From Dehalococcoidia bacterium (GTDB taxonomy: Bacteria; Chloroflexota; Dehalococcoidia; Bin125), in assembly GCA_022825265.1 (NCBI GenBank), contig JAJDXE010000006.1, forward strand, positions 20,923 to 84,922: a stretch of DNA of 64,000 nucleotides, read 5' to 3'. How positions within the stretch are numbered: position 1 is the stretch's first letter; each line of letters opens with the position of its first letter. Both the position numbers and the translations under genes were made by a program. Shown in pieces: positions 17,218 to 53,798 of this stretch. A model generated the notes under the pieces. That model was given only the letters and a program-made list of their open reading frames with translations. It was not told where the DNA came from and did no database searches.

Positions 17218-18375
17218 TCATTGCAGGAGGTCTTGGGCAAACTGGCTGCCGGGAAGTCGGGCGAGTTCCCTTGCATAAGTGGACTCGCCGCGCATGACTC
17301 GGAAGAAGGCTCTCCAGAGGTAGTTGACGTGTTTGGACATCTTGAGGGCGAGCCAGGGCCACGTGGTGAGGCACCAGTAGTAGAGGCGAGAGATGGTTCT
17401 GGCCGCGTTGAGCTCGGGTTGGATTTCTCGGTTGATTGATCTTGTGTAGCTGGACGCGGGGTCGGCTGCGTGGAGTATTGCGTCGGCCGCGAGGTTGGCG
17501 GAGTGGACGGCGTAAGCGATGCCCTCGGCAGTGAATTCGTCGGCGAGACCGGCCGCGTCTCCGAGGAGCAGGGCGCGACCTCGGGCGACGGGTTCATTGG
17601 TTGAGCGTCGGTAGCGGATCGGGTGTCCCTGGACCTTGATCGCCTCCGCATCCCCGAGACCGAGACGCGAGAGATAGCGGTCGGTTTGCTTGCGGATCGA
17701 GCGTCCTTGCTTTGGCGCGGTGACGACTCCGACCGAGAGCTTGCCGTCCTTGGGGAAGACCCAGCCGTAGCCCCAGGGTCGATAGCCAACATCGACGTTG
17801 GCAGCCTGATGCCAGTGGTCCAAGGCGGTCGTCGGAGCGGCGACCTCGACCTCATATGCAGCGCTCCGGGTTGGCGCGGAGTCGATGCCGAGCCAACGGG
17901 CGGTCGGTCCAGTGGCGCCGTCGGCGGCGAGGATGTGGCGGGCGGCCACCGCGCCGGTCGGAGTATCGATTTCGTAACTGCCGCCGTTCTCGACGATCGA
18001 CTGAACCGGTGTGGAGTCGCGGACGGTGACGCCTGAATCGGCGGCCAGGTCGGTGAGGTACTGGTCGAAGCGGTCTCGCATGACCATCCATGCGAGCGGG
18101 CGGTTCGATCTCTTGCGGAACTGGTGCTGGCCAAAACGGGAGACGTCGATCGTGTCGACGTGGCCTTCGCTGACGGGGGAGATGTCGAGGCCGTCGAGCA
18201 GTTGGAGGGTTCGCGCGGGAACGCCGCCTCCGCAGGCCTTGTAGCGGGGCAGCGACTGCTTCTCCAGGAGCAGGGTGGAGGCTCCGGCGTTGCTCAGTCG
18301 CCGGGCGGCAGTTGCGCCGGCGGGACCGGCCCCGATCACGACGGCGTCCCAGGTCTTCTGACCATGGCTGGGCAT
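17218..18375 (-). CDS. Geranylgeranyl reductase-family FAD oxidoreductase
   Basis: VIGAGPAG, PRYKACGGG, AADGATG, YGWVFPK, LLGDAAG. Confidence 0.88.
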   Translation of the reverse strand: MPSHGQKTWDAVVIGAGPAGATAARRLSNAGASTLLLEKQSLPRYKACGGGVPARTLQLLDGLDISPVSEGHVDTIDVSRFGQHQFRKRSNRPLAWMVMRDRFDQYLTDLAADSGVTVRDSTPVQSIVENGGSYEIDTPTGAVAARHILAADGATGPTARWLGIDSAPTRSAAYEVEVAAPTTALDHWHQAANVDVGYRPWGYGWVFPKDGKLSVGVVTAPKQGRSIRKQTDRYLSRLGLGDAEAIKVQGHPIRYRRSTNEPVARGRALLLGDAAGLADEFTAEGIAYAVHSANLAADAILHAADPASSYTRSINREIQPELNAARTISRLYYWCLTTWPWLALKMSKHVNYLWRAFFRVMRGESTYARELARLPGSQFAQDLLQ

Positions 18376-18474
18376 GATGGATCAGCCTACCGGGCGTTGC
18401 TCCAGCCATTGTCTATACTTTGTGCGCCTGCGAGTAGGTCGCGGGTTGGTGCGCAGAAGCCTCAGGAGCCAAGC

Positions 18475-19679: not shown

Positions 19680-19709
19680 AAGAAGCGGCCTCGCAAGGGG
19701 CCGCTTCTT
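19680..19709. terminator. Probable bidirectional intrinsic terminator
   Basis: AAGAAGCGGCC-TC-GCAA-GG-GGCCGCTTCTT between convergent genes. Confidence 0.7.
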
Positions 19710-19732: not shown

Positions 19733-20230
19733 TCACCCAGAGCGCGCACCTCTGAGCAGGTCATTGACGTGCTCGCGGACATGACCGACGGCGACGCCTT
19801 CCAGCACATCAAGCAGCGTGCCCTCGACGCCTCCGGCTGACCTGGTCGGCTGCTTGAGCAGTTCTTCGTCGGCTGCTCGGATTGCGTCGATTGTCTCGGC
19901 CCGATTGCGCCGGAATTCCGTCAGCAATTGCTCGACCGGCTGGTCGTCCCGGCGGGCGACCTGCTTGGCGTTGTAGGCGTCCATGTCGAATCCGGCGCCT
20001 CCACCTTGGGGGACGTCGTCTCCGGCGGCTCGCTGTTCGGCTCGCTCGATCAGGCGGGGATAGGTCCACTCGATCGCGGCGATGTGGGCCAGGAGTTGTC
20101 GCGCGTTCCAGCCCTGCTCGTAGACGCCTCGCTCGAAGGCTTCGTCAGGCAGTTGGGCGACCGCTTCCTGAAACTCTTCACTGTCCTGCTGGAGTTCTGC
20201 GATCAGTTCTTCACGGTTGGTGATGCTCAT
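19733..20230 (-). CDS. DinB/maleylpyruvate-isomerase-like protein
   Basis: WNARQLLAHIA, MDAYNA, HVREH; ATG overlaps SDR stop (ATGA). Confidence 0.75.
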   Translation of the reverse strand: MSITNREELIAELQQDSEEFQEAVAQLPDEAFERGVYEQGWNARQLLAHIAAIEWTYPRLIERAEQRAAGDDVPQGGGAGFDMDAYNAKQVARRDDQPVEQLLTEFRRNRAETIDAIRAADEELLKQPTRSAGGVEGTLLDVLEGVAVGHVREHVNDLLRGARSG

Positions 20231-21093
20231 GTTGCCGGCCACTCCGCTCCGGTGATCTCGTTGGTGGCGTCCCAGAGGCGTTCGGCGGCTTGACGATCGG
20301 TGGCCTGTGGTTGCTGCTGGGTGCGGGTGTGGCGGTCGAAGTACTCGCCGGCGTCTGCGCGTCGGGCGGAGTCGGTGACAAGCTCGACGACCGGAGCGGC
20401 GCCCTCCTCGGGACTGCGCAGCAACGGCCGCAGGACGCGAAGACCGGCCCGCATCGGAGCGGGGAAGTTCTGCGCGAAATTGGTCGCCACGACGCCGGGG
20501 TGGACGGAGAAGGCGGCTAACCCGGCGTCGTGCGTGCGTCGATGCAGTTCGTTGGTGAATAGGATGTTGGCCAGCTTGGTCGCGCAATAGGGCCGAATTC
20601 CACCCCAGTAGTGCTCGAAGTTGAGGTCGTCCAGCGGCATCGCCTCGACGCGCTCATAGACGCGCGAGCTGACGTTGACGACTCGGGCATCGTCCGACTC
20701 AAGCAGCTTCGGCAGCAGCAGCGAGGTGAGCAGGACGTGCGAGAAGTGATTCGTCTGCATCATCGTCTCATGGCCGTCGCCGGTGAGCTGTCGGTCGTTG
20801 AGAGTGAGCCCCGCGTTGTTGACCAGGACATCGAGCCGTTCGGTGCGTTCCAGCAGTTCGTCGGCGGCTCGCCGGACGGAGGCAAACGAGGTCAGGTCCA
20901 TTTGCAGCAGTTCGACAGCGATGGAGCCGCTGTCCTTCTGGATCTGCGAGACGGCGGCCTGGCCGCGTTCGGGCGAGCGGGCGGCGGCGAAGACGTGCCA
21001 GCCGCGTCGCGCCAGGTCGGTGGCGGCCGCCTGACCGATGCCGCTGTTGGCTCCGGTGATGAGAACGGTCGGAGGTGTTGAGGGAGCGTTCAT
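20227..21093 (-). CDS. Short-chain dehydrogenase/reductase, retinol-dehydrogenase-like
   Basis: TGANSGIG, LVNNAG, NVSS, YCATK (YxxxK), HPGVV; ATG overlaps hpnA stop. Confidence 0.9.
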   Translation of the reverse strand: MNAPSTPPTVLITGANSGIGQAAATDLARRGWHVFAAARSPERGQAAVSQIQKDSGSIAVELLQMDLTSFASVRRAADELLERTERLDVLVNNAGLTLNDRQLTGDGHETMMQTNHFSHVLLTSLLLPKLLESDDARVVNVSSRVYERVEAMPLDDLNFEHYWGGIRPYCATKLANILFTNELHRRTHDAGLAAFSVHPGVVATNFAQNFPAPMRAGLRVLRPLLRSPEEGAAPVVELVTDSARRADAGEYFDRHTRTQQQPQATDRQAAERLWDATNEITGAEWPAT

Positions 21094-22091
21094 TGACGGA
21101 CTTTCTGAAACCAGGTCACCGCTTCTCGGAATGTCTCGTCCAGAGCGGTCTGCGGCAGTCGCAACTCTTCGATCGCCTTGCGGCAATCGAAGAACTGCTG
21201 TCGGCGGGCGAGCCGGACTCCCGCAATAGTCGCCCGTGGTTGCTGTCTGGTCAAAGCGCTGATCAGAAACTCATCGATCACCGCGGCTGCGAAGGCCACC
21301 GGTAATGGGAGCGCAATCCTCGGCAGCGAAGCGCCGCTCGATAACGCAGCGCATTCGATGATCTCGCGCAAGGTCAGATTGCCATCGCGGTGTCCGAGGA
21401 TGTAGCGCTCGCCGATGCGTCCGCGCTGGGCGGCCGCGACGTGTCCGGCGGCGACGTCGGAGACGTGGACGATGTTCAGGCCTGCGGACTTCATGTAGGC
21501 CGGCATGTCGCCGCTGGCTGCGTCGCGAATCAGGAATCCGGTGGGCGTTGGCTTGAGGTCCAAGGGGCCGATCGGGGCTGTAGGCAGGACGCAGACCGCG
21601 GGCAGAGACTCGGATTGGACCAGTTCGTGGACGAGCCGCTCACTGAGAATCTTGGTCTCCTCGTACGGTCCTGGTGCATCTTCGACAGTCGCCCACTGTG
21701 TTTCGTCGGCGGGCCTTGATGGGTCGAGAGGCGGTCCGACTGCGGCGACGGAAGACGTGTGCACGACGTGGTCGACCTGCGCCCGGAGCGCGGCCAGCAT
21801 TAGTTGCCGTGTGCCGTCGACGTTGGCACGATAAGCGTCCGCTCGGGCGCGTCGGCTGAGGTCGTAGCGGGCGGCGACGCTGAAGAGGGTGTCGACCCCT
21901 GCCAGTGCGTTGGCGAGCGAAGTCGGCTCGGTGAGGTCTCCGTGGACGATCTCGATCGGCAGCCCATCGAGGCTGCGTTGGTCGCTGCCCTCGCGGACCA
22001 TGGCCCGGACTTCGGCGCCCGCCTCGAGCGCGGCGCGGACGACATGAGCGCCGATGAACCCGTTGGCTCCTGTGACCAGAGCTCGCTTCAA
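21090..22091 (-). CDS. hpnA: Hopanoid-associated NAD-dependent epimerase/dehydratase
   Basis: VTGANGFIG, HTSSVA, YEETK, PIGPLDLKPTPTG; hopanoid context. Confidence 0.75.
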   Translation of the reverse strand: MKRALVTGANGFIGAHVVRAALEAGAEVRAMVREGSDQRSLDGLPIEIVHGDLTEPTSLANALAGVDTLFSVAARYDLSRRARADAYRANVDGTRQLMLAALRAQVDHVVHTSSVAAVGPPLDPSRPADETQWATVEDAPGPYEETKILSERLVHELVQSESLPAVCVLPTAPIGPLDLKPTPTGFLIRDAASGDMPAYMKSAGLNIVHVSDVAAGHVAAAQRGRIGERYILGHRDGNLTLREIIECAALSSGASLPRIALPLPVAFAAAVIDEFLISALTRQQPRATIAGVRLARRQQFFDCRKAIEELRLPQTALDETFREAVTWFQKVRQ

Positions 22092-22110
22092 GGGGATTCC
22101 GTAATCGGCG

Positions 22111-22803
22111 CTACGCGCCGTTCTCGCCGACGAGAGCGGGGATGATCAAGGTCATCGCTCGCTCCAGCTCCTGGATGGCCGATTGACGCTGGATGCCGAG
22201 TGAGACGAGCTCGGGCAGCAGGCCGGGACGGCGGATCGCGCCGACCGCGATGTCCAGGGCGGATGGCTTGCCTCGCCACTGGACGACCTCGTTGGGGATG
22301 TCGTCGTCGAGCGCATCCATCACGACGCGCACGCAGGCGAAGGGGATGTCCGCCGCGGCGCAGGCCTCGGCCCATTCTGCGTCTTCCATCTGGACGATTT
22401 CGGCGCCCGAGTCGGCAGCCTCGCGCTTTTCCGGCCTGGTGAACAGGATTTCCGGCGTGGTGATGCTGGTCACCGACTGCCAGAAGATGTCGGCCCGGTT
22501 GAGCAGGCGGATCGTTTGCTTGCGAAGCTGTTCGTCGGCCTCGAAGACTGCGCCGTCGGTCTGGCGGATGATGCTGGTCGGCAGGGTGATCGATGGCCGC
22601 CGCAAGGTGTTCGTCAGGCCGCCGGCGACGCCGATGCTGATCACCTGGGAAGGCGAGCGTTCCATCGTCTCCTCGGCCGCGTCTCGGGCACGCTGAGGCC
22701 CGACGCCGGAGGTGACGATCCGCACCCGTCCGCGCCCGGCGATCGCTTGTCCGGCGCGGGCGGCTTTCGCCTCCCAGGGAAGTGCAGCGGTGATCGTGAG
22801 CAT
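22111..22803 (-). CDS. hpnG: HpnG-like nucleoside phosphorylase (adenosylhopane nucleosidase)
   Basis: SGVG, SIGVAGGL, QME, PFACVRVVMD phosphorylase-fold motifs; adjacent to hpnA; divergent sequence. Confidence 0.6.
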   Translation of the reverse strand: MLTITAALPWEAKAARAGQAIAGRGRVRIVTSGVGPQRARDAAEETMERSPSQVISIGVAGGLTNTLRRPSITLPTSIIRQTDGAVFEADEQLRKQTIRLLNRADIFWQSVTSITTPEILFTRPEKREAADSGAEIVQMEDAEWAEACAAADIPFACVRVVMDALDDDIPNEVVQWRGKPSALDIAVGAIRRPGLLPELVSLGIQRQSAIQELERAMTLIIPALVGENGA

Positions 22804-26106: not shown

Positions 26107-27114
26107 TTAGCGGATCGAGCCGACGAAGCTGCGGAGGCCGGCCTTGAGGTTGGTGGTGGCGTCGATCACGGCGGAAGCTTCGTAGCCCGAGTGGACCATG
26201 CAGTCGACGCACTTGGGATTGCCCGAGGCGACGCCGTAGTTCTCCCACTCGGTCTCTTCGATCAACTCGTGCCAGCTTTCGGCGTAGCCCTCGTCCATCA
26301 GGTAGCAGGGCCGCTGCCAGCCGAAGACGGTGTAGGTCGGGTTGCCCCACGGCGTGCAGTCGTACTCGATCTCGCCCTTGAGGAAGTCGAGGAAGAGCTC
26401 GGAGTGATTGAACTTCCAGTGCCTGGGCGGGTCGTTGAGGATGTCGCGGAACAGATCCTTGGTCTGGTTGCGTGCCAGGAAGTGCTCCTGGTCGGGCGCC
26501 TTCTCATAGGGGTAGCCGGGCGAGATCATCAGGCCGTCGACGCCGATCTCCATCAGCTTGTCGAACATCATCCGGATGCGGTCCGGCTTGGCCCCGAGGA
26601 AAAAGGTGCTGTTCGTGGTCACCCGGAAGCCGCGCGCTTTAGCCGCCTCGATCGCCCGGATCGCGACGTCCCAGATGCCGTCACGGCAGACCGAATCGTC
26701 GTGGTCCTGTTCGTAGCCGTCGACGTGGACGGAGAAGGTCAGGTACGGGTTGGGCTCGAAGTCCTGCAGCTTGCGCTCCAGCAGGATCGCATTGGTGCAG
26801 AGGTAGACGAACTTCTTGCGCTCGGTGTAGCCGTTGGCGATCTCGACGATGTCCTTGTGGATCAGCGGCTCGCCGCCGGCGATCGCGACCACCGGCGCGC
26901 CGCATTCCTCAACCGCGTCCCAGCACTGCTGCGGCGTGAGGCGACGGCGGAGGATGTCGTTGGGGTGCTGGATCTTGCCGCAACCCGCGCACTCGAGGTT
27001 GCATTGCAGCAGCGGTTCGAGCATCAGCACGAGCGGGTAGCGCTCGGTCCGGCGCAGACGCTGGCCGACGACATACTTGCCGACCTGAATGGTTTGTCTC
27101 AGTGGTGTGGCCAT
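26107..27114 (-). CDS. hpnH: Adenosylhopane synthase, radical SAM
   Basis: YPLVLMLEPLLQCNLECAGCGKI, AGGEPLIH, CTPWGNPT, NPKCVDCMVHSGYE. Confidence 0.93.
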   Translation of the reverse strand: MATPLRQTIQVGKYVVGQRLRRTERYPLVLMLEPLLQCNLECAGCGKIQHPNDILRRRLTPQQCWDAVEECGAPVVAIAGGEPLIHKDIVEIANGYTERKKFVYLCTNAILLERKLQDFEPNPYLTFSVHVDGYEQDHDDSVCRDGIWDVAIRAIEAAKARGFRVTTNSTFFLGAKPDRIRMMFDKLMEIGVDGLMISPGYPYEKAPDQEHFLARNQTKDLFRDILNDPPRHWKFNHSELFLDFLKGEIEYDCTPWGNPTYTVFGWQRPCYLMDEGYAESWHELIEETEWENYGVASGNPKCVDCMVHSGYEASAVIDATTNLKAGLRSFVGSIR

Positions 27115-47070: not shown

Positions 47071-47446
47071 TCGCCTCTGCCTCGATCTCGACGATCATTT
47101 CAGGGTCCACCAGACCCCTGACCTCGACCAACGTCGATGTCGGCGGAGCGTCGGCAAACGCAGCGCGCAGATGCTCGCCCATCGACTCGGTTTGGTCGAT
47201 GTCGGTGATGTACATGCGAAGCCGAACGACATCGGCGAGCGACCCGCCGAGTTCCTCGAGCGCAGCCTCGATGATTGCCAGGCAGCGAGCGGTCTGAGGG
47301 CCGGCGCCACCCGGGGTGACGCTACCGTCGTCCTCGACCGCCGCCGTTCCGCTGACATGAATCAGATTGCCAACGCGCAGCGCCCGGCAATAGGCGAAGC
47401 GCGTTTCAAACTCCGGATTCGAGTGGCTCCGCCGTCGGTTGGTCAT
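47039..47446 (-). CDS. RidA-family protein
   Basis: [38 protein letters not shown]; ATGA-coupled to hpnE. Confidence 0.88.
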
Positions 47447-48849
47447 CTCGATTGAACCGGTCTTTCTAGCAACGCCCGAGCGGCCGCTCGGCCGCTGCGC
47501 ACGGCCGACTCCATCGTGGCCGGCCAACCGGTCGCCGTCCAGGCGCCGGCGAGTACGAGGTTGCGGATTGACGTGCGCGCCGGCACGCGATGCGCATTCA
47601 TCCCCGGCGTTGGCCGGAACGTGGCCTCTGCCTCCTTGACCACCCGAGTCGCGAGCAGGTTCGCGCCCGCCGTCCGCCGCAACGCACGCCGAACCGCACG
47701 CTCGACCCGCTCAACGATCACTTGCTGCGGCAAATCAACCAGGTTGTGCGCCCCACTCAGCGAGACCGAAATCCAATGCGGCGGCGTCTGCCAACCGTGA
47801 ATCTGGGATCGGTGGAAGATGAACTGCGCATCGGGATCGAGCACGGCGACAAAGTCCCGACGCATCACCCGCCGATCCCATTGCATGTGTACGTTGATGA
47901 TCGGGCTGACCTCGTGCTGGCTCAGTCGCCAGAACGGCTCACGCCGTCGCCAGGCGGCCGGCACCAGGTTGAAGGCCGCCTGTGGAGGCAGGGCGATGAC
48001 GACCGCGCTCACATCTGCCTGCTGGCCGCGCCCATAGCGCACCGCGGCGGCGTCCCCACCGTGCATCACGATGGCGCTCGCGTTGCCGTTCAACTCAACC
48101 CGTGCTCCTCGCTCGCGCAGCCGATCCAGCGCGGCATGCGCGACCTGGCCCAGTCCCCGAGTGAACAGGCCAATGTCGGCTGCGCCCGTATCACGGCTGA
48201 ATCCCTCCTGAAAGACCTGGATCGCCTGCGTTGCCGACACGTCGGAACAGTGATCATTGCAAGTCGGCAAAACAATCAGGTCCCAGAACCGCTCGATCAC
48301 GCGTTCGGTCTGATGGTGATTGAGCAGCCAAGTCTCAAATGACAGCCGATCGAGCGCCAGCCGCTCAAGTTCGCTCATCCTGCGAATCGGCTCAAAGGCA
48401 AAGGCAAGCCGCGTCTTCTCGGCCAAGGTCAGGTGCTCGTACGTCACCATCGAAGGAAACATATGCAGCGGAGCCGGCAACAGCTGCAGTCCCAACCGAG
48501 ACAACACGCTCGGCTGCTTCGATGAAATCACGCTGACATGATGACCGCGCGAGTCCGGGTCAATCACCGCAACCTCGAGGTTGTCCTGGTAGCGCACAAT
48601 GTCGGCGCAGCCAATCCGTTCAAGGAAGGCCTGGAATTCGGTGCAGCAGCGCATCGTGATGTGCTGCCCGTTGTCGAGGATCACCTCGTGCTTCGGATCC
48701 TCAAATGAGTAGGCCTTGCCACCGACGAACGGTCGGCGCTCGAACAAGGCCACATTGCGACCGGCGTCAACCAGTTCCAGCGCAGCGCTGAGACCGGCAA
48801 GCCCGCCTCCAATGACGGCGATCGGAGCCTCGACACCGTAGTCGGTCAC
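47443..48849 (-). CDS. hpnE: Hydroxysqualene dehydroxylase
   Basis: VIGGGLAG, LDNGQH, GWPATMESAVRSG; follows hpnCD. Confidence 0.88.
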   Translation of the reverse strand: MTDYGVEAPIAVIGGGLAGLSAALELVDAGRNVALFERRPFVGGKAYSFEDPKHEVILDNGQHITMRCCTEFQAFLERIGCADIVRYQDNLEVAVIDPDSRGHHVSVISSKQPSVLSRLGLQLLPAPLHMFPSMVTYEHLTLAEKTRLAFAFEPIRRMSELERLALDRLSFETWLLNHHQTERVIERFWDLIVLPTCNDHCSDVSATQAIQVFQEGFSRDTGAADIGLFTRGLGQVAHAALDRLRERGARVELNGNASAIVMHGGDAAAVRYGRGQQADVSAVVIALPPQAAFNLVPAAWRRREPFWRLSQHEVSPIINVHMQWDRRVMRRDFVAVLDPDAQFIFHRSQIHGWQTPPHWISVSLSGAHNLVDLPQQVIVERVERAVRRALRRTAGANLLATRVVKEAEATFRPTPGMNAHRVPARTSIRNLVLAGAWTATGWPATMESAVRSGRAAARALLERPVQSR

Positions 48850-48856
48850 GGCGGCG

Positions 48857-49762
48857 TCAGCCGATGCGGGCGACGTTAGGCATCGCGCCCATCAACCAGA
48901 GTTCCAACATCCGAACCACGCGACCCACCTTGGACGGCGACACCCGCTGGCTGTAGACGTCATACTCACGCTCGACGATCGCGTCGAGAATCATCCGGTA
49001 CACGCCCTGCAGTCCATTGCAGCAAGCACGGCTGCGCGGTCCGTCGAGCAACGGGATCAGGCGGTCGCCCTCGCGATAGAAGGCATAGGCGCGCTGGGCG
49101 TAGTCGGCCATCAGGTTGCGGAAGGGCTCGCCGTAGACGTTGCCGAGAATGTCCTCATCGCTGAGACCGTGCAGATCCAGATCTTCCTGAGCGAGATAGA
49201 TCCGCCCGCGCTCGGCGTCTTCCTTGACGTCGCGCATGATGTTGGTGATTTGCAGTGCCTTGCCCATCGCCACCGCAGAACTGATCGCGCGCTGCGTATG
49301 CGAGCGGTCGTAGCCAAAGATGCAGATGCAGATCAACCCGATCACCGAGGCGGCCCGGTAGCAATATTGCTCCAAATCAGCCCAGGTTTCATAGCGCGTA
49401 TAGGTCAGGTCGTGCTCCATCCCGAGCACAAGTTCCTCAAAGTGGTCCCGCGGAATGTCGTAACGCTCGATCGCGTCGGCCAGACCCATCGTCAACCACG
49501 ACGGTTCGGCGGCGCCGCCGTTGTAGGCAGCGTGCAACAGGTCGTGAGCCTGATTCAGGGCCGCCGCACGCTCCTCCTGCGTGCCGGCGTCGTCGACCGC
49601 GTCGTCAACTGTCCCAGCATAAGCGTAGGCAGCGTAGATCGCCTGCCGCTTGTGGCGGGGCAACGCCGAGAAGGCGATGTAGAAATTGGTCGCCCGGCGA
49701 CGTGTAAACGCCTGGCATGCTTGGTAGGCCTCGGCGACCTGTGGATCGAGACGTCGTTGCAT
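48857..49762 (-). CDS. hpnD: Presqualene diphosphate synthase
   Basis: NFYIAF, TVDDAVD, YCYRAAS, QITNIMRDVKED, RIYL. Confidence 0.85.
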   Translation of the reverse strand: MQRRLDPQVAEAYQACQAFTRRRATNFYIAFSALPRHKRQAIYAAYAYAGTVDDAVDDAGTQEERAAALNQAHDLLHAAYNGGAAEPSWLTMGLADAIERYDIPRDHFEELVLGMEHDLTYTRYETWADLEQYCYRAASVIGLICICIFGYDRSHTQRAISSAVAMGKALQITNIMRDVKEDAERGRIYLAQEDLDLHGLSDEDILGNVYGEPFRNLMADYAQRAYAFYREGDRLIPLLDGPRSRACCNGLQGVYRMILDAIVEREYDVYSQRVSPSKVGRVVRMLELWLMGAMPNVARIG

Positions 49763-49769
49763 GATGGCG

Positions 49770-50699
49770 TCAGGTTAGTTTGAGTTGGATTGCCGCGCGC
49801 AAGGCCAACCAGGCTCGGGTGCTCTTGCCAACCCTGGGACGCCTCGTCAGCGTGTCGTAGTCCTGATGCTCGATCGCCTTGAGCACCGCTCGGCCTCCAT
49901 CGGTGAACAGACGCAGATCGATCGCCAGCTCCGGTGGAACCTCGTCAATCAGCCGCTCGCCCTTTCGGAACCAGGCCTCCGCGCGATCAACCTGGAAGCG
50001 CATCATCGTTCGATATGCGTCGGGGCACTGACGCTCGCGAATCGCCTCAGCAACCTCCTCTTCCGACAGACCGAAGCCGTTCAGCTCCTCTAGCGGCAGG
50101 TACATCCGCCCGGCGTCGAGATAGTCGCGTCGCACGTCTTGCCAGTGATTGGCGATCTGCAGCGCAGTGCACGTCGCATCGGACAAATCCCGCCGATACT
50201 GGCCTTCGTCGGTCCCGGTGTCGATATCCCACAGCGCCAGCACCATCTCGCCGACCGGATTGGCCGAGAGGTCGCAGTACGCAAGCACGTCCTGGAAGGT
50301 CTCATAGCGAGACTTGTGCTGATCGAGCCGATTTGCCTCAATCAGCCGGCGAAACGGATCAACGCGCAGCGGCTTGGACTCGGCCACGTGTTGCAAAGCG
50401 ACGTTGATCGGGTGTTGCGGCTGAGAGCCGTCAAAGCCCCGCTCCAGGTCTGCCTGCCAGGTGTCCAGCCGCTCAAGTCGCTCATGCGGCTCGGCGTCGG
50501 GATCGTCGCCGAGGTTGTCCGTGAAGCGGCAGAATGCGTAGACCGCGAACATCGGCGCGCGCAGTTCGCGGGGCAGAAACCAGCTGACGACGGTGAAGTT
50601 CTCACTGTGCCGCCGGGTGTATCGCTGACACCAGCGTAGCGCGTCGACCGAGTCGCCGGCGAACGCGCTGTCCGGGGTACCCTGCTTGCTGAGGCTCAT
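49770..50699 (-). CDS. hpnC: Hydroxysqualene synthase
   Basis: HSENFTVVSWFLP, YCDLSANPVGEMVL, ALQIANHWQDV. Confidence 0.9.
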   Translation of the reverse strand: MSLSKQGTPDSAFAGDSVDALRWCQRYTRRHSENFTVVSWFLPRELRAPMFAVYAFCRFTDNLGDDPDAEPHERLERLDTWQADLERGFDGSQPQHPINVALQHVAESKPLRVDPFRRLIEANRLDQHKSRYETFQDVLAYCDLSANPVGEMVLALWDIDTGTDEGQYRRDLSDATCTALQIANHWQDVRRDYLDAGRMYLPLEELNGFGLSEEEVAEAIRERQCPDAYRTMMRFQVDRAEAWFRKGERLIDEVPPELAIDLRLFTDGGRAVLKAIEHQDYDTLTRRPRVGKSTRAWLALRAAIQLKLT

Positions 50700-50723
50700 C
50701 GGCGTGCGGCGCCTGTGTACTTC

Positions 50724-51854: not shown

Positions 51855-53789
51855 CTATCGAGGCGCGATCGCCTGTTCGTAGCGTCCCAGTGCCATCAGG
51901 GGGAAATAGTGACGGTAGAGGTGATAGTTGATCATGAAGTCGCCGGGGAATCCGGTGCCGGTGAATTCCGGCTCGTCCCAGGTGCCGTCCTCCCGCTGCC
52001 GCTCGACGAGATACTGCACGCCCCGCGCGACCGACTCATGCTCCGCCTCTCCGGCCGCGATCAGCGCCATCAGGGCCCACGCCGTTTGTGACGGTGTGGA
52101 GGGTCCCAGACCGCGCAGCGACGGGTCGGCATAAGTGTCGCAGGATTCACCCCAGCCTCCGTCCTCGAGCTGGTGGCGGAAGAGCCACTCGATCGCGTTG
52201 CGCACCGGAGGCGCAGACATCGACTCGCCCAGCGTCTTGAGCGCTGGCAGCGCCGCGCCCAGGCCGTAGATGTAGTTGACGCCCCATCGGCCCCACCACG
52301 AACCATCCGGCTCCTGCAACTCGTACAGGAAGCGCAGGCCGCGGCTGGCGGGCGGATACTGGCCGCTGTAGCCAAGCTGGCCGATGTACTCGAGCGCATG
52401 AGCCGTGACATCGGCGGTCGGCGGATCGAGCAGCTCGCCGAAGTCGGCGAAGGGAATGTCCGCCAGAAAGGTCTTGTCGTTGTCCACGTCGAACGCGCCC
52501 CAGCCGCCGTTCGAGGACTGCATCGAGAGCATCCAGTGCAACCCTTGATCGAGAGCAAGCTGCCGCTCCGACTCCAGACCTGGCATCGGAATGCGCTCCA
52601 GGGCCATCAGCACGACGGCGGTGTCATCAACGTCCGGATAGATGTCGTTGTCGAACTCGAATGCCCAGCCGCCTGGCGGCGTATCCGGATTCTTGACCTG
52701 CCAGTCGCCGCCGCTCAGTACCTGCTCGCGCAGCATCCAGCGGGCTGCGCGCTGCAGAACCGGGTGCTGCGGATCGAGTCCCGTGTCCAGCAGACCGACC
52801 GCGGCCAGGCAGGTGTCCCACACCGGGGACTGGCAACTCTCCGTCCAGATCTGTTCGCCCTCGCGATCGACCTGGTTCCAGGTGAAGCGTTCAAATCCCG
52901 CGAGCGCTCGTCGGATGACCGGATGGTCCAGCGAGTAGCCCATCGCCCGCAGTGCAAGGATCGCGTAGACCCAGGGAGGTTGAATCCCCCCCCAACAACC
53001 GTCGGCCTCCTGCCGGTCAAGCAGCCAGCGCTCCGAAAACGCAAGCGCGCGATGCTCGAACGGTCGGATGCGGTTGCGGTCCAGGAACCGAAGCAGCGAG
53101 TCGACGACATAAAACACGCCCTTTGCCGACAACGGATTCTTCGGCGGCGGCACAGCGAACCGTCGCCGGTCCGACGGCTTGACCCACAGCTCTGGCACGC
53201 CCGCGCCGGCCGGCAACGCGGCCGTCGGCCGAAGCGTCATGATCACCGTGATTCCGACGATCGTCGCCCGAGCCCAGCTCGCAAACTCATACAGATTGAT
53301 CGGCAGCCATGAGGGCAGCAGATTGATCCAGGGCGGCATCGCCGGCAGACGATCCCAGTCGAACTCGCCGAACATCGCCAGCCAGATCTTGGTGAACACG
53401 CGCGCCTTGACGATCCCACCCTGCTCCAGAATCCACTCGCGGGCCCGCGTCATGTGCGGCGAGTCGGGATCGTCACCGGCCAGCTTGAGCGCGAAGTAGG
53501 ACTCAACCGAGGTCGAGACGTCTCCGGGACCGTTCAGGTATTGCGCCCAGAACCCCTCCGGCCGCTGTTGCGCCCTGATGTAGCGCGCAATCCCGTCCCA
53601 TTGCTGTCGATCACCAATGCCCAGGTGATGCGTCAACAGCAGGTACTCGGACGAGATCGACGGGTTCGATTCCAACTCGCCCCACCAGAACCCGGCCGGG
53701 TCTTGCTGTTCGATCAGCCAGTCGGTAGCCCGCCTGATCGATCTCGACAGAGCGCTGTCGGCGACCGATTGAGGTCTGACAGTCGTCAT
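51855..53789 (-). CDS. shc: Squalene-hopene cyclase
   Basis: YPDVDDTA (DxDD) motif; QW repeats (QDPAGFW, QRPEGFW, QEADGCW, QSSNGGW, QEPDGSW, QLEDGGW, QREDGTW); SQTAWAL. Confidence 0.96.
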   Translation of the reverse strand: MTTVRPQSVADSALSRSIRRATDWLIEQQDPAGFWWGELESNPSISSEYLLLTHHLGIGDRQQWDGIARYIRAQQRPEGFWAQYLNGPGDVSTSVESYFALKLAGDDPDSPHMTRAREWILEQGGIVKARVFTKIWLAMFGEFDWDRLPAMPPWINLLPSWLPINLYEFASWARATIVGITVIMTLRPTAALPAGAGVPELWVKPSDRRRFAVPPPKNPLSAKGVFYVVDSLLRFLDRNRIRPFEHRALAFSERWLLDRQEADGCWGGIQPPWVYAILALRAMGYSLDHPVIRRALAGFERFTWNQVDREGEQIWTESCQSPVWDTCLAAVGLLDTGLDPQHPVLQRAARWMLREQVLSGGDWQVKNPDTPPGGWAFEFDNDIYPDVDDTAVVLMALERIPMPGLESERQLALDQGLHWMLSMQSSNGGWGAFDVDNDKTFLADIPFADFGELLDPPTADVTAHALEYIGQLGYSGQYPPASRGLRFLYELQEPDGSWWGRWGVNYIYGLGAALPALKTLGESMSAPPVRNAIEWLFRHQLEDGGWGESCDTYADPSLRGLGPSTPSQTAWALMALIAAGEAEHESVARGVQYLVERQREDGTWDEPEFTGTGFPGDFMINYHLYRHYFPLMALGRYEQAIAPR

Positions 53790-53798
53790 GCGCGCACG

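What the first reader, a model, noticed from the sequence alone, without database searches (positions are those of the whole stretch)
19733..22803. hpnG-hpnA-SDR-DinB operon: candidate for the unassigned ribosylhopane-reducing step
Seen: hpnG, hpnA (19-nt gap), then an SDR and a DinB-like gene, each ATGA-coupled, ending at a bidirectional terminator. Known: HpnH makes adenosylhopane and HpnG gives ribosylhopane; to my knowledge the NAD(P)H-dependent reduction to bacteriohopanetetrol has no firmly assigned enzyme. The SDR is of the type that handles lipophilic substrates. Inference: the SDR (and/or HpnA) does this reduction or another side-chain tailoring step, and the DinB protein is a new accessory factor. 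hpnB/I/J/K/O/N/P/R are not seen in this window.
Basis: partly seen in the sequence, partly recalled or inferred. Interest (0 to 1): 0.65.

Follow-up and report, generated by a model that had tools for sequence, protein, structure and literature searches.

The report
Hopanoid hpnG-hpnA operon plus SDR-DinB
A sponge-associated Chloroflexota bacterium transcribes two genuine hopanoid side-chain genes together with an NADPH-type short-chain reductase and a small metal-binding DinB protein, but this extra pair occurs in only four related genera and in no other hopanoid cluster sampled, so it is at best a lineage-specific, unproven candidate for the missing bacteriohopanetetrol-forming step.

Summary
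On the minus strand, an hpnG-like gene, hpnA (19-nt gap), a classical SDR and a DinB gene (both joined by ATGA overlaps) form one operon ending at a hairpin terminator. hpnH lies 3.3 kb upstream and hpnCDE and shc lie 25-30 kb away.

It is true that the ribosylhopane-to-bacteriohopanetetrol (BHT) step is still unassigned, according to 2025-2026 papers. The SDR is an intact reductase related to protochlorophyllide reductase, probably NADPH-using.

Comparative genomics shows two separable modules:
- hpnG-hpnA is the tail of an ancestral hpnH-hpnG-hpnA operon, present in all 10 genera of the family.
- SDR-DinB follows hpnA in only 4 of those genera, where the whole neighbourhood is syntenic. A toxin-antitoxin pair separates the two modules in some of them.

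The pair is absent from the six sister genera and from 18 other hopanoid clusters in at least five phyla. The closest outside homologues of each gene sit in unrelated contexts.

The SDR therefore cannot be the general ribosylhopane reductase. It remains a weak, lineage-restricted candidate (about 15%). HpnA as the candidate is already in the literature.

In passing, the same genome carries a sterol biosynthesis cluster that includes a sterol methyltransferase.

The parts
22111..22803 (-). hpnG-like nucleosidase/phosphorylase (230 aa), first gene of the operon
   Evidence: PNP_UDP_1 58 bits. TIGR03468 HpnG 115.7 bits, below the 187.1 cut-off. Orthologous position between hpnH and hpnA in sister genera.
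21090..22091 (-). hpnA, extended SDR / 3beta-HSD-like (333 aa, TTG start, 19 nt after hpnG)
   Evidence: TIGR03466 359.4 bits against a cut-off of 367.65; second-best match SdmB at 192 bits. 25 of 65 orthologues in the order exceed the cut-off. Next to hpnH in 9 of 10 other Chloroflexota clusters and close to it (about 0.4-8 kb) in 5 of 8 clusters from other phyla.
20227..21093 (-). Classical SDR (288 aa), ATGA-coupled to hpnA; probably an NADP(H)-type carbonyl reductase
   Evidence: adh_short 131 bits; PRK06197 217 bits, below the 268 cut-off; LPOR 105 bits. Invariant T13-G14-x3-G18-x-G20, R39, N92-N93-A94-G95, N115, S143, Y169, K173. Nearest PDB entries are 3rd5 and LPORs. Linked to hpnA only in genera g1, g173, g174 and g175.
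19733..20230 (-). DinB_2 / YfiT-like four-helix-bundle protein (165 aa), ATGA-coupled to the SDR
   Evidence: DinB_2 43 bits, MDMPI_N 42 bits. Invariant H49, H150, H154. AF2 model pLDDT 90.7. Foldseek TM 0.73 to 2nsf and 0.72-0.76 to YfiT 1rxq. Only 282 homologues at E<=1e-5 in 5.8 billion proteins.
19680..19709 (.). Hairpin terminator between the DinB stop and the convergent acyl-CoA dehydrogenase gene
   Evidence: 11-pair stem, 7 GC pairs, T-rich tail on the minus strand (sequence).
26107..27114 (-). hpnH (adenosylhopane synthase), the pathway step before hpnG; separated from hpnG by mgtE, a glyoxalase-like gene and an enoyl-CoA hydratase gene
   Evidence: TIGR03470 513 bits against a cut-off of 225. 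Contiguous with hpnG-hpnA in six sister genera.
47443..50723 (-). hpnE, hpnD, hpnC (squalene synthesis); pathway context
   Evidence: TIGR03467 375 bits, TIGR03465 243 bits, TIGR03464 286 bits.
51855..53798 (-). shc, squalene-hopene cyclase; pathway context
   Evidence: TIGR01507 766 bits against a cut-off of 431.

Best explanation
The stretch is a real, co-directional, translationally coupled four-gene operon built from two evolutionary modules.

Module 1, hpnG-hpnA, is the conserved tail of an ancestral hpnH-hpnG-hpnA hopanoid side-chain operon.

Module 2, SDR-DinB, was added once behind hpnA, in the common ancestor of four genera of one sponge-associated Dehalococcoidia family.

Shown:
- The SDR is an intact classical short-chain reductase.
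- The DinB protein is an intact His-triad four-helix-bundle protein.
- The pair is dispensable for whatever hpnH-hpnG-hpnA do in the sister genera and in every other hopanoid cluster sampled.

Inferred:
- The SDR uses NADPH (Arg39 after beta-strand 2) to reduce a lipophilic aldehyde or ketone.
- DinB uses its metal site to activate a thiol or water on the same or a neighbouring compound.

The pair is not the general ribosylhopane reductase. My split for its substrate is:
- about 45%, a lipophilic carbonyl or electrophile unrelated to the core hopanoid pathway, meaning a co-transcribed accessory or detoxification pair;
- about 35-40%, a hopanoid side-chain intermediate, of which about 15% is the ribosylhopane aldehyde itself;
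- the rest, unknown.

The confidence given here is for the two-module, lineage-restricted add-on reading, not for any one substrate.
For: - Operon anatomy and coupling.
- HpnH is present in 64 of 65 genomes of the order and HpnA in 65 of 65, covering all 10 genera.
- SDR-DinB lies directly after hpnA only in g1, g173, g174 and g175.
- In g176-g181 the operon is hpnH-hpnG-hpnA, followed by other genes such as DUF35 plus a thiolase-like gene. No SDR or DinB is nearby.
- The modules are separable. A HigB/HigA-like pair sits between hpnA and the SDR in some relatives, while SDR-DinB stay overlapped.
- The hpnA-linked SDRs form one clade (support 99/96). Its sister clade holds unlinked SDRs of sister genera, in varied contexts.
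- A 49%-identical SDR outside the family lies in a phosphotriesterase-SDR-hydrolase context. A 52%-identical DinB stands alone.
- None of 80 remote SDR loci and none of 18 other hpn clusters combines the two. One cluster has a weak SDR hit on the opposite strand about 2 kb from hpnA.
- DinB-clade fusions are to MOSC and glyoxalase domains or to a second DinB, never to an SDR.
- The SDR motifs, the DinB His triad and the DinB fold are intact.
Against: - ATGA overlaps make SDR-DinB depend on the hpnG promoter in genus g1. Such coupling usually marks functional partners.
- The linkage has survived divergence down to about 46% SDR identity.
- The chemistry fits. The missing step is an NADPH-dependent aldehyde reduction directly after HpnG, and this genome has no hpnI or hpnJ to account for further side-chain steps.
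- Absence of the pair elsewhere does not exclude a lineage-specific hopanoid role.
- There are no expression or biochemical data.
Confidence: 0.65

Rival explanations
1. The classical SDR is a dedicated NADPH-dependent ribosylhopane reductase that makes bacteriohopanetetrol in this lineage. DinB helps, for example by releasing or opening the HpnG product.
For: - It is translationally coupled to hpnG-hpnA and conserved with them in 4 genera and more than 45 genomes.
- It has an intact catalytic set and a probable NADP(H) site, and it is related to LPOR-type SDRs.
- The step is still unassigned and is known to need NADPH (Bodlenner 2015 as cited there).
- There are no hpnI or hpnJ genes downstream.
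Against: - Six sister genera with hpnH-hpnG-hpnA lack it at the locus, and 18 other hpn clusters lack it.
- The whole neighbourhood is syntenic, so the conserved adjacency is not independent evidence.
- The sister-clade SDRs are unlinked to hpn genes.
- SDR copies duplicate and are lost freely within the genus.
- A toxin-antitoxin insertion splits it from hpnA in some genomes.
Confidence: 0.15
2. SDR-DinB perform a different, lineage-specific tailoring of the hopanoid side chain. Examples would be oxidation of the ribosylhopane lactol to the lactone (ribonylhopane) followed by ring opening, or an oxidation-reduction epimerisation that gives a BHT stereoisomer.
For: - Same operon evidence as above.
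- HpnA is present in all genera and could already cover the reduction, which would leave the add-on pair free for an extra step.
- Paralogue diversification is typical of tailoring enzymes.
Against: - There is no chemical evidence for unusual bacteriohopanepolyols from this lineage.
- No DinB-fold lactonase or epimerase is known to me.
- The distribution arguments against any hopanoid role apply here too.
Confidence: 0.15
3. HpnA, not the classical SDR, is the enzyme that processes the HpnG product (reduction or epimerisation). SDR-DinB are irrelevant to that step.
For: - HpnA is in 65 of 65 genomes of the order.
- It lies directly beside hpnH or hpnG in 9 of 10 other Chloroflexota clusters, and within about 0.4-8 kb of hpnH in 5 of 8 clusters from other phyla.
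- It is homologous to the triterpenoid-acting reductase SdmB (192 bits) and to OleD.
- It has been proposed in the literature (PMC5462960).
Against: - PMC5462960 cites Schmerk 2015 for evidence that hpnA is not essential for BHT in Burkholderia cenocepacia, and notes BHT producers without hpnA.
- hpnA is absent from 6 of 48 hpnH-bearing Alphaproteobacteria (PMC12583986).
Confidence: 0.25

Closest known systems
hpnA-hpnG 'cluster C' of Acidobacteria, and canonical hpn islands (Sinninghe Damste et al. 2017, PMC5462960; Zymomonas, Burkholderia and Rhodopseudomonas clusters)
   Same: The hpnG-hpnA pair is adjacent and co-directional, with hpnH and shc nearby, and a gene of unknown function follows the pair.
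   Different: Here the trailing genes are a classical SDR plus a DinB-fold protein. In the two Acidobacteriaceae genomes sampled, the neighbour is a zinc MDR alcohol dehydrogenase. hpnH is separated from hpnG by three unrelated genes.
PRK06197 / PRK06196 / PRK05854 classical SDR subfamilies, including light-dependent protochlorophyllide reductase and (from my own knowledge) retinol dehydrogenase 11-14
   Same: TGxxxGIG, NNAG and the N-S-Y-K tetrad are present, Arg follows beta-2, and the length is about 290 aa. The best NCBIfam and PDB matches fall here.
   Different: It scores below every curated cut-off (217 against 268). There is no characterised close relative; the best PDB match is the uncharacterised 3rd5 at 118 bits.
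DinB/YfiT-like metalloenzymes: bacillithiol transferase YfiT (1rxq), mycothiol S-transferase (8f5v), and the N-domain of mycothiol-dependent maleylpyruvate isomerase (2nsf)
   Same: Four-helix bundle, with a His triad at equivalent positions (H49, H150, H154). Foldseek TM is 0.72-0.76.
   Different: Sequence identity is only 14-17%, and sequence search finds no PDB hit. The thiol cofactor of this organism is unknown. The clade is small and almost confined to this bacterial family.

Membership tests
HpnG (TIGR03468, hopanoid-associated phosphorylase) | PNP_UDP_1 nucleoside phosphorylase fold | tested here: met
   PF01048 58.2 bits against a cut-off of 25.1.
HpnG (TIGR03468, hopanoid-associated phosphorylase) | Score at or above NCBIfam's curated cut-off | tested here: not met
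   115.7 bits against 187.1, although it is the best-scoring family.
HpnG (TIGR03468, hopanoid-associated phosphorylase) | Genomic linkage to hpnH and shc | tested here: met
   hpnH lies 3.3 kb upstream here. The orthologue sits between hpnH and hpnA in six sister genera.
HpnG (TIGR03468, hopanoid-associated phosphorylase) | Cleaves adenine from adenosylhopane | not testable with these tools
   Needs a biochemical assay or a knockout.
HpnA (TIGR03466, hopanoid-associated extended SDR) | Extended-SDR/epimerase fold with GxxGxxG and YxxxK | tested here: met
   PF01370 118 bits and 3Beta_HSD 81 bits. GANGFIG and YEETK can be read in the sequence.
HpnA (TIGR03466, hopanoid-associated extended SDR) | Score at or above the curated cut-off | tested here: inconclusive
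   359.4 against 367.65, which is 8 bits short. 25 of 65 orthologues in the order pass.
HpnA (TIGR03466, hopanoid-associated extended SDR) | Linkage to hpn genes | tested here: met
   Adjacent to hpnG here. Adjacent to hpnH or hpnG in sister genera, in other Chloroflexota and in other phyla.
Classical SDR, PRK06197-type subfamily | TGxxxGxG, NNAG and the catalytic N-S-Y-K | tested here: met
   Invariant T13, G14, G18, G20, N92-G95, N115, S143, Y169 and K173 across 20 homologues.
Classical SDR, PRK06197-type subfamily | Score at or above the curated cut-off | tested here: not met
   217.2 against 268. It is a relative of the subfamily, not a named member.
DinB/YfiT-like superfamily (PF12867 DinB_2) | Pfam gathering score, four-helix bundle and metal-binding His triad | tested here: met
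   43.1 bits against 24.8. AF2 pLDDT 90.7 with four long helices. TM 0.73 to 2nsf and 1rxq. H49, H150 and H154 are invariant.
DinB/YfiT-like superfamily (PF12867 DinB_2) | Thiol-dependent transferase or isomerase activity | not testable with these tools
   Needs a biochemical assay. The organism's low-molecular-weight thiol is unknown.
Ribosylhopane reductase (activity without an assigned gene) | Co-distribution with hpnH and hpnG across hopanoid side-chain producers | tested here: not met
   The hpnA-linked SDR clade is in 4 of 10 genera, although all 10 have hpnH and hpnA (hpnG seen in all loci sampled). It is absent from 18 other hpn clusters.
Ribosylhopane reductase (activity without an assigned gene) | NADPH-dependent reduction of ribosylhopane to BHT | not testable with these tools
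   Only the cofactor type is inferred, from Arg39. The activity needs an assay.

The most novel reading that the evidence does not exclude
No universal 'BHT synthase' gene may exist. Instead, the reduction after HpnG would be done by non-orthologous NAD(P)H oxidoreductases recruited separately into hpnG/hpnA operons. Here that would be a classical SDR with a DinB partner. In Acidobacteria it would be a zinc MDR dehydrogenase, seen next to hpnA/hpnG in both Acidobacteriaceae genomes sampled. In many other lineages it would be HpnA itself. The SDR in this window would then be the first identifiable ribosylhopane reductase of one lineage.
Probability: 0.15. Interest if true: 0.75.

Novelty: new variant of a known kind. 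Interest (0 to 1): 0.35.

Why it matters
Bacteriohopanepolyols are major bacterial membrane lipids and the source of geological hopane biomarkers, and the step from ribosylhopane to bacteriohopanetetrol has had no gene for over a decade. A reductase welded onto hpnG-hpnA is a cheap, testable candidate: one protein, one substrate, NADPH. My analysis narrows the claim. This SDR cannot be the general enzyme, and the linkage evidence is confined to one clade with frozen synteny. The result also strengthens the case that HpnA is the oxidoreductase that recurs with hpnH across phyla.

Tried and rejected
It was useless for finding orthologues, so I used it only as a negative control.
- The phylum-wide SDR search found only 35-46% homologues. 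None is adjacent to an HpnA-like gene in the same genomes (compared).
- I looked for SDR-DinB fusion proteins as evidence of functional coupling and found none. Fusions are to MOSC, glyoxalase or a second DinB, plus one probable gene-calling artefact with an ECH fragment.
- A PDB sequence search with DinB gave nothing significant. Only the fold search was informative.
- I considered that ACAD and ECH near the unlinked SDRs of genus g181 might mark an ancestral fatty-acid context for the SDR. I rejected this. Identities are 32-52%, the orientation differs and these genomes hold many paralogues.
- I checked whether SDR-DinB tracks the sterol cluster rather than the hopanoid genes. It does not. 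The sterol-cluster HpnA paralogue is almost confined to genus g1 (one further hit in g180), while SDR-DinB also occurs in g173-g175.
Full report
**1. What is there**

The window is G000:C7:20923-84922 of a 2.89-Mb, 98.8%-complete genome. Its classmates in the genome search are small Dehalococcoidia-like genomes.

On the minus strand I confirm four ORFs:
- HpnG-like, 22803..22111, 230 aa.
- A 19-nt gap, then HpnA, 22091..21090, 333 aa. TTG is the first start codon in its open frame.
- A classical SDR, 21093..20227, 288 aa. Its ATG overlaps the hpnA stop as ATGA.
- A DinB_2 protein, 20230..19733, 165 aa, again with an ATGA overlap.

An 11-pair hairpin with a T-rich tail lies at 19709-19680, before the convergent acyl-CoA dehydrogenase gene. 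No sigma-70-like promoter is found inside the operon.

Family scores:

| Protein | Best family | Bits | Curated cut-off |
|---|---|---|---|
| HpnG-like | TIGR03468 | 115.7 | 187.1 |
| HpnA | TIGR03466 | 359.4 | 367.65 |
| SDR | PRK06197 | 217 | 268 |
| SDR | adh_short | 131 | 26.6 |
| DinB | DinB_2 | 43 | 24.8 |
| DinB | MDMPI_N | 42 | 24.2 |

**2. Pathway context in the window and genome**

- hpnH is at 26107-27114 (513 bits). Between it and hpnG lie mgtE, a glyoxalase-like gene and a divergent enoyl-CoA hydratase gene.
- hpnE, hpnD and hpnC (47443-50723), a dodecin gene, shc (51855-53798, 766 bits) and a prenyl synthase gene lie 25-30 kb away.
- The genome has no HpnI or HpnJ. The known pathway therefore stops at HpnG and HpnA.

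**3. State of knowledge**

- A 2025 survey states that the enzyme converting ribosylhopane to BHT 'has not yet been established', and that the functions of hpnA, hpnB and hpnL are unknown (PMC12583986).
- A 2026 review still draws the step as unassigned or non-enzymatic (PMC13459092).
- Sinninghe Damste et al. 2017 already described an hpnA-hpnG cluster followed by an unknown gene in Acidobacteria. They proposed HpnA for this step, while citing Schmerk 2015 and hpnA-less BHT producers against it (PMC5462960).

So the premise holds. The hpnG-hpnA pairing and the HpnA hypothesis are prior art. Only the SDR-DinB extension is new with respect to the literature I could search.

**4. Is the SDR-DinB linkage conserved?**

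The order holds one family, with 65 genomes in 10 genera.

- HpnH is present in 64 of 65 genomes and HpnA in 65 of 65.
- In genus g1, 27 of the 30 loci fetched show HpnA followed by one or two SDRs and then DinB. The other three are cut by a contig end or by the 1.5-kb flank. HpnG is visible wherever the flank reaches it.
- With 8-kb flanks, genera g1, g173, g174 and g175 share the entire neighbourhood: HpnH | glyoxalase-like | ECH | HpnG | HpnA | SDR | DinB | ACAD | geranylgeranyl-reductase-like. Conserved adjacency in this clade is therefore not independent evidence of a functional link.
- In g173- and g174-type genomes a HigB/HigA-like pair (Gp49 plus an HI1420-type antidote) sits between hpnA and the SDR. 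hpnG-hpnA and SDR-DinB each stay overlapped. These are two separable modules.
- In the six remaining genera (g176-g181), hpnH-hpnG-hpnA are contiguous. They are followed by other genes: a DUF35 OB-fold gene plus a thiolase-like gene in three genera, and an isochorismatase or pentapeptide-repeat gene in others. No SDR or DinB is nearby.
- In those genera the best SDR homologues (38-46% identity) lie elsewhere. A 46-48% DinB homologue stands alone in g180.

**5. Phylogeny of the SDR**

- A maximum-likelihood tree puts all hpnA-linked SDRs in one clade (support 99/96). Its sister clade (100/99) contains the unlinked SDRs of g176, g178 and g181.
- Those unlinked copies have unrelated neighbours: CoA-transferase, peroxiredoxin, carboxyltransferase, FAA hydrolase and cupin genes.
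- The SDR lineage is therefore older than its association with hpnA and is not hopanoid-linked elsewhere.
- Inside g1 there are several duplications. Tandem copies are 56-67% identical to the query SDR, and different genomes retain different copies. This is birth-and-death evolution.
- Across g1, DinB is as well or better conserved (76-98%) than the SDR (54-94%).

**6. Outside the family**

- A 49%-identical SDR sits in a phosphotriesterase-SDR-hydrolase operon.
- A 52%-identical DinB stands alone next to 2-oxoacid dehydrogenase genes.
- Of 80 remote SDR loci from many phyla, none is near hpnG, hpnH, shc or DinB. This includes nine genomes that do have hpnH.
- In 10 other Chloroflexota hopanoid clusters (mostly hpnC-D-E, shc, hpnH, hpnA), tblastn and profile HMMs built from my SDR and DinB alignments found no DinB. 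They found only one weak SDR hit, on the opposite strand about 2 kb away.
- The same was true of 8 clusters from Alphaproteobacteria, Acidobacteria, Cyanobacteria, Gammaproteobacteria, Streptomyces and an unclassified bacterium.
- HpnA, by contrast, lies next to hpnH in 9 of the 10 Chloroflexota clusters. It lies within about 0.4-8 kb of hpnH in 5 of the 8 others.
- Both Acidobacteriaceae clusters carry a zinc MDR alcohol dehydrogenase beside hpnA/hpnG. This partly bears out earlier notes of this scan.

**7. What the two add-on proteins are**

SDR:
- Invariant TGxxxGIG, NNAG, N115, S143, Y169 and K173.
- Arg39 after beta-2 indicates NADP(H). This is an inference from established SDR cofactor rules.
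- The nearest structures are the uncharacterised 3rd5 and light-dependent protochlorophyllide reductases.

DinB:
- H49, H150 and H154 are invariant.
- The AlphaFold model is confident, with pLDDT 90.7.
- It matches the N-domain of mycothiol-dependent maleylpyruvate isomerase, YfiT, ClbS and mycothiol S-transferase at TM about 0.7.
- The clade is small: 282 homologues at E<=1e-5 in 5.8 billion proteins, and 45 representatives at E<=1e-30.
- Its fusions are to MOSC, glyoxalase or a second DinB domain, never to an SDR.

**8. Verdict**

The operon coupling and the chemistry are plausible.

My probabilities are:
- about 15% that the SDR is a lineage-specific ribosylhopane reductase;
- about 15% that the pair performs another hopanoid tailoring step;
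- about 45% that it is an accessory pair for lipophilic carbonyls or electrophiles, unrelated to the core pathway.

HpnA remains the better-distributed candidate, at about 25% by my estimate for some role on the HpnG product.

Earlier agents of this scan reached the same verdict, 'plausible, lineage-restricted, unproven', for the same operon in four sister genomes. I treat that as agreement, not as independent evidence.

**9. Noticed in passing**

Contig C12 of the same genome carries a sterol-type cluster. It contains:
- an SdmB-like HpnA paralogue;
- an SdmA-like Rieske oxygenase;
- an ERG4/ERG24 reductase;
- a 1146-aa open frame that combines squalene-epoxidase and triterpene-cyclase domains;
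- a sterol methyltransferase.

Brown et al. 2023 reported functional bacterial sterol methyltransferases in sterol clusters from sponge metagenomes, belonging to an unidentified symbiont (PMC10070321). This genome may put a taxonomic name on such a symbiont.

Noticed in passing
Same genome, contig C12:180000-198000 (locus L171: 2394-16181): A sterol-type biosynthesis cluster. It contains an SDR, an HpnA-like/3beta-HSD (SdmB-like) gene, a Rieske plus VanA_C oxygenase (SdmA-like), an ERG4/ERG24 sterol reductase, a 1146-aa open frame combining squalene-epoxidase and SQHop-cyclase domains (probably an oxidosqualene cyclase; TIGR01507 only 280 bits), a sterol methyltransferase (Sterol_MT_C) and an MFS transporter. 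A sponge-associated Dehalococcoidia genome would thus have both hopanoid and sterol pathways. This bears on the debate over bacterial sterol methyltransferases and sponge biomarkers (PMC10070321 reports such clusters from an unidentified sponge symbiont)..
   Followed up: partly
L135:6942-8724, L137:6831-8603, L140:8327-8923 (sister genera g178, g179, g181): In sister genera the contiguous hpnH-hpnG-hpnA operon is followed on the same strand by a DUF35/ChsH2_C OB-fold protein. In L135 and L137 a thiolase-like (SCP-x/Ltp2-type) protein comes next; L140 was not checked for it. That pairing is known from steroid side-chain cleavage. It may be another lineage-specific hopanoid side-chain module or plain synteny.
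   Followed up: partly
L115:9227-10325; L144:6463-7133; L145:6463-7133: A HigB/HigA-like toxin-antitoxin pair (Gp49 plus an HI1420-type antidote) is inserted between hpnA and the SDR in g173- and g174-type relatives.
   Followed up: yes
L088, L095, L100, L103-L106, L108 (genus g1 relatives): Tandem SDR paralogues (56-67% identical to the query SDR) lie between hpnA and DinB in at least 8 genomes. Other genomes keep only one or the other type. The tree shows several duplications.
   Followed up: yes
L164:5938-7023 and L169:13438-14532 (two Acidobacteriaceae genomes): A zinc MDR alcohol dehydrogenase (ADH_N plus ADH_zinc_N) lies beside the hpnA/hpnG genes in both acidobacterial hopanoid clusters sampled. 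It probably corresponds to the 'ug1' of PMC5462960.
   Followed up: partly
L155, L156, L158, L159, L160 (other Chloroflexota): hpnH is followed directly (gaps of about 70-290 nt) by hpnA, with no recognisable hpnG between them. hpnG may lie elsewhere or be too divergent for tblastn.
   Followed up: no
window 17218-18381 (-): A geranylgeranyl-reductase-family flavoprotein (TIGR02032, 218 bits) lies two genes beyond the operon's terminator. It is kept in that position in genera g1, g173 and g175. A role in isoprenoid or hopanoid saturation was not examined.
   Followed up: no
G320:C1:915332-915826 and G324:C1:1168575-1168986 (L129, L130): The DinB orthologues carry internal stop codons in two single-contig genomes. 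In L130 the nearby GG-reductase gene is also split, so long-read sequencing errors are as likely as real pseudogenes.
   Followed up: no
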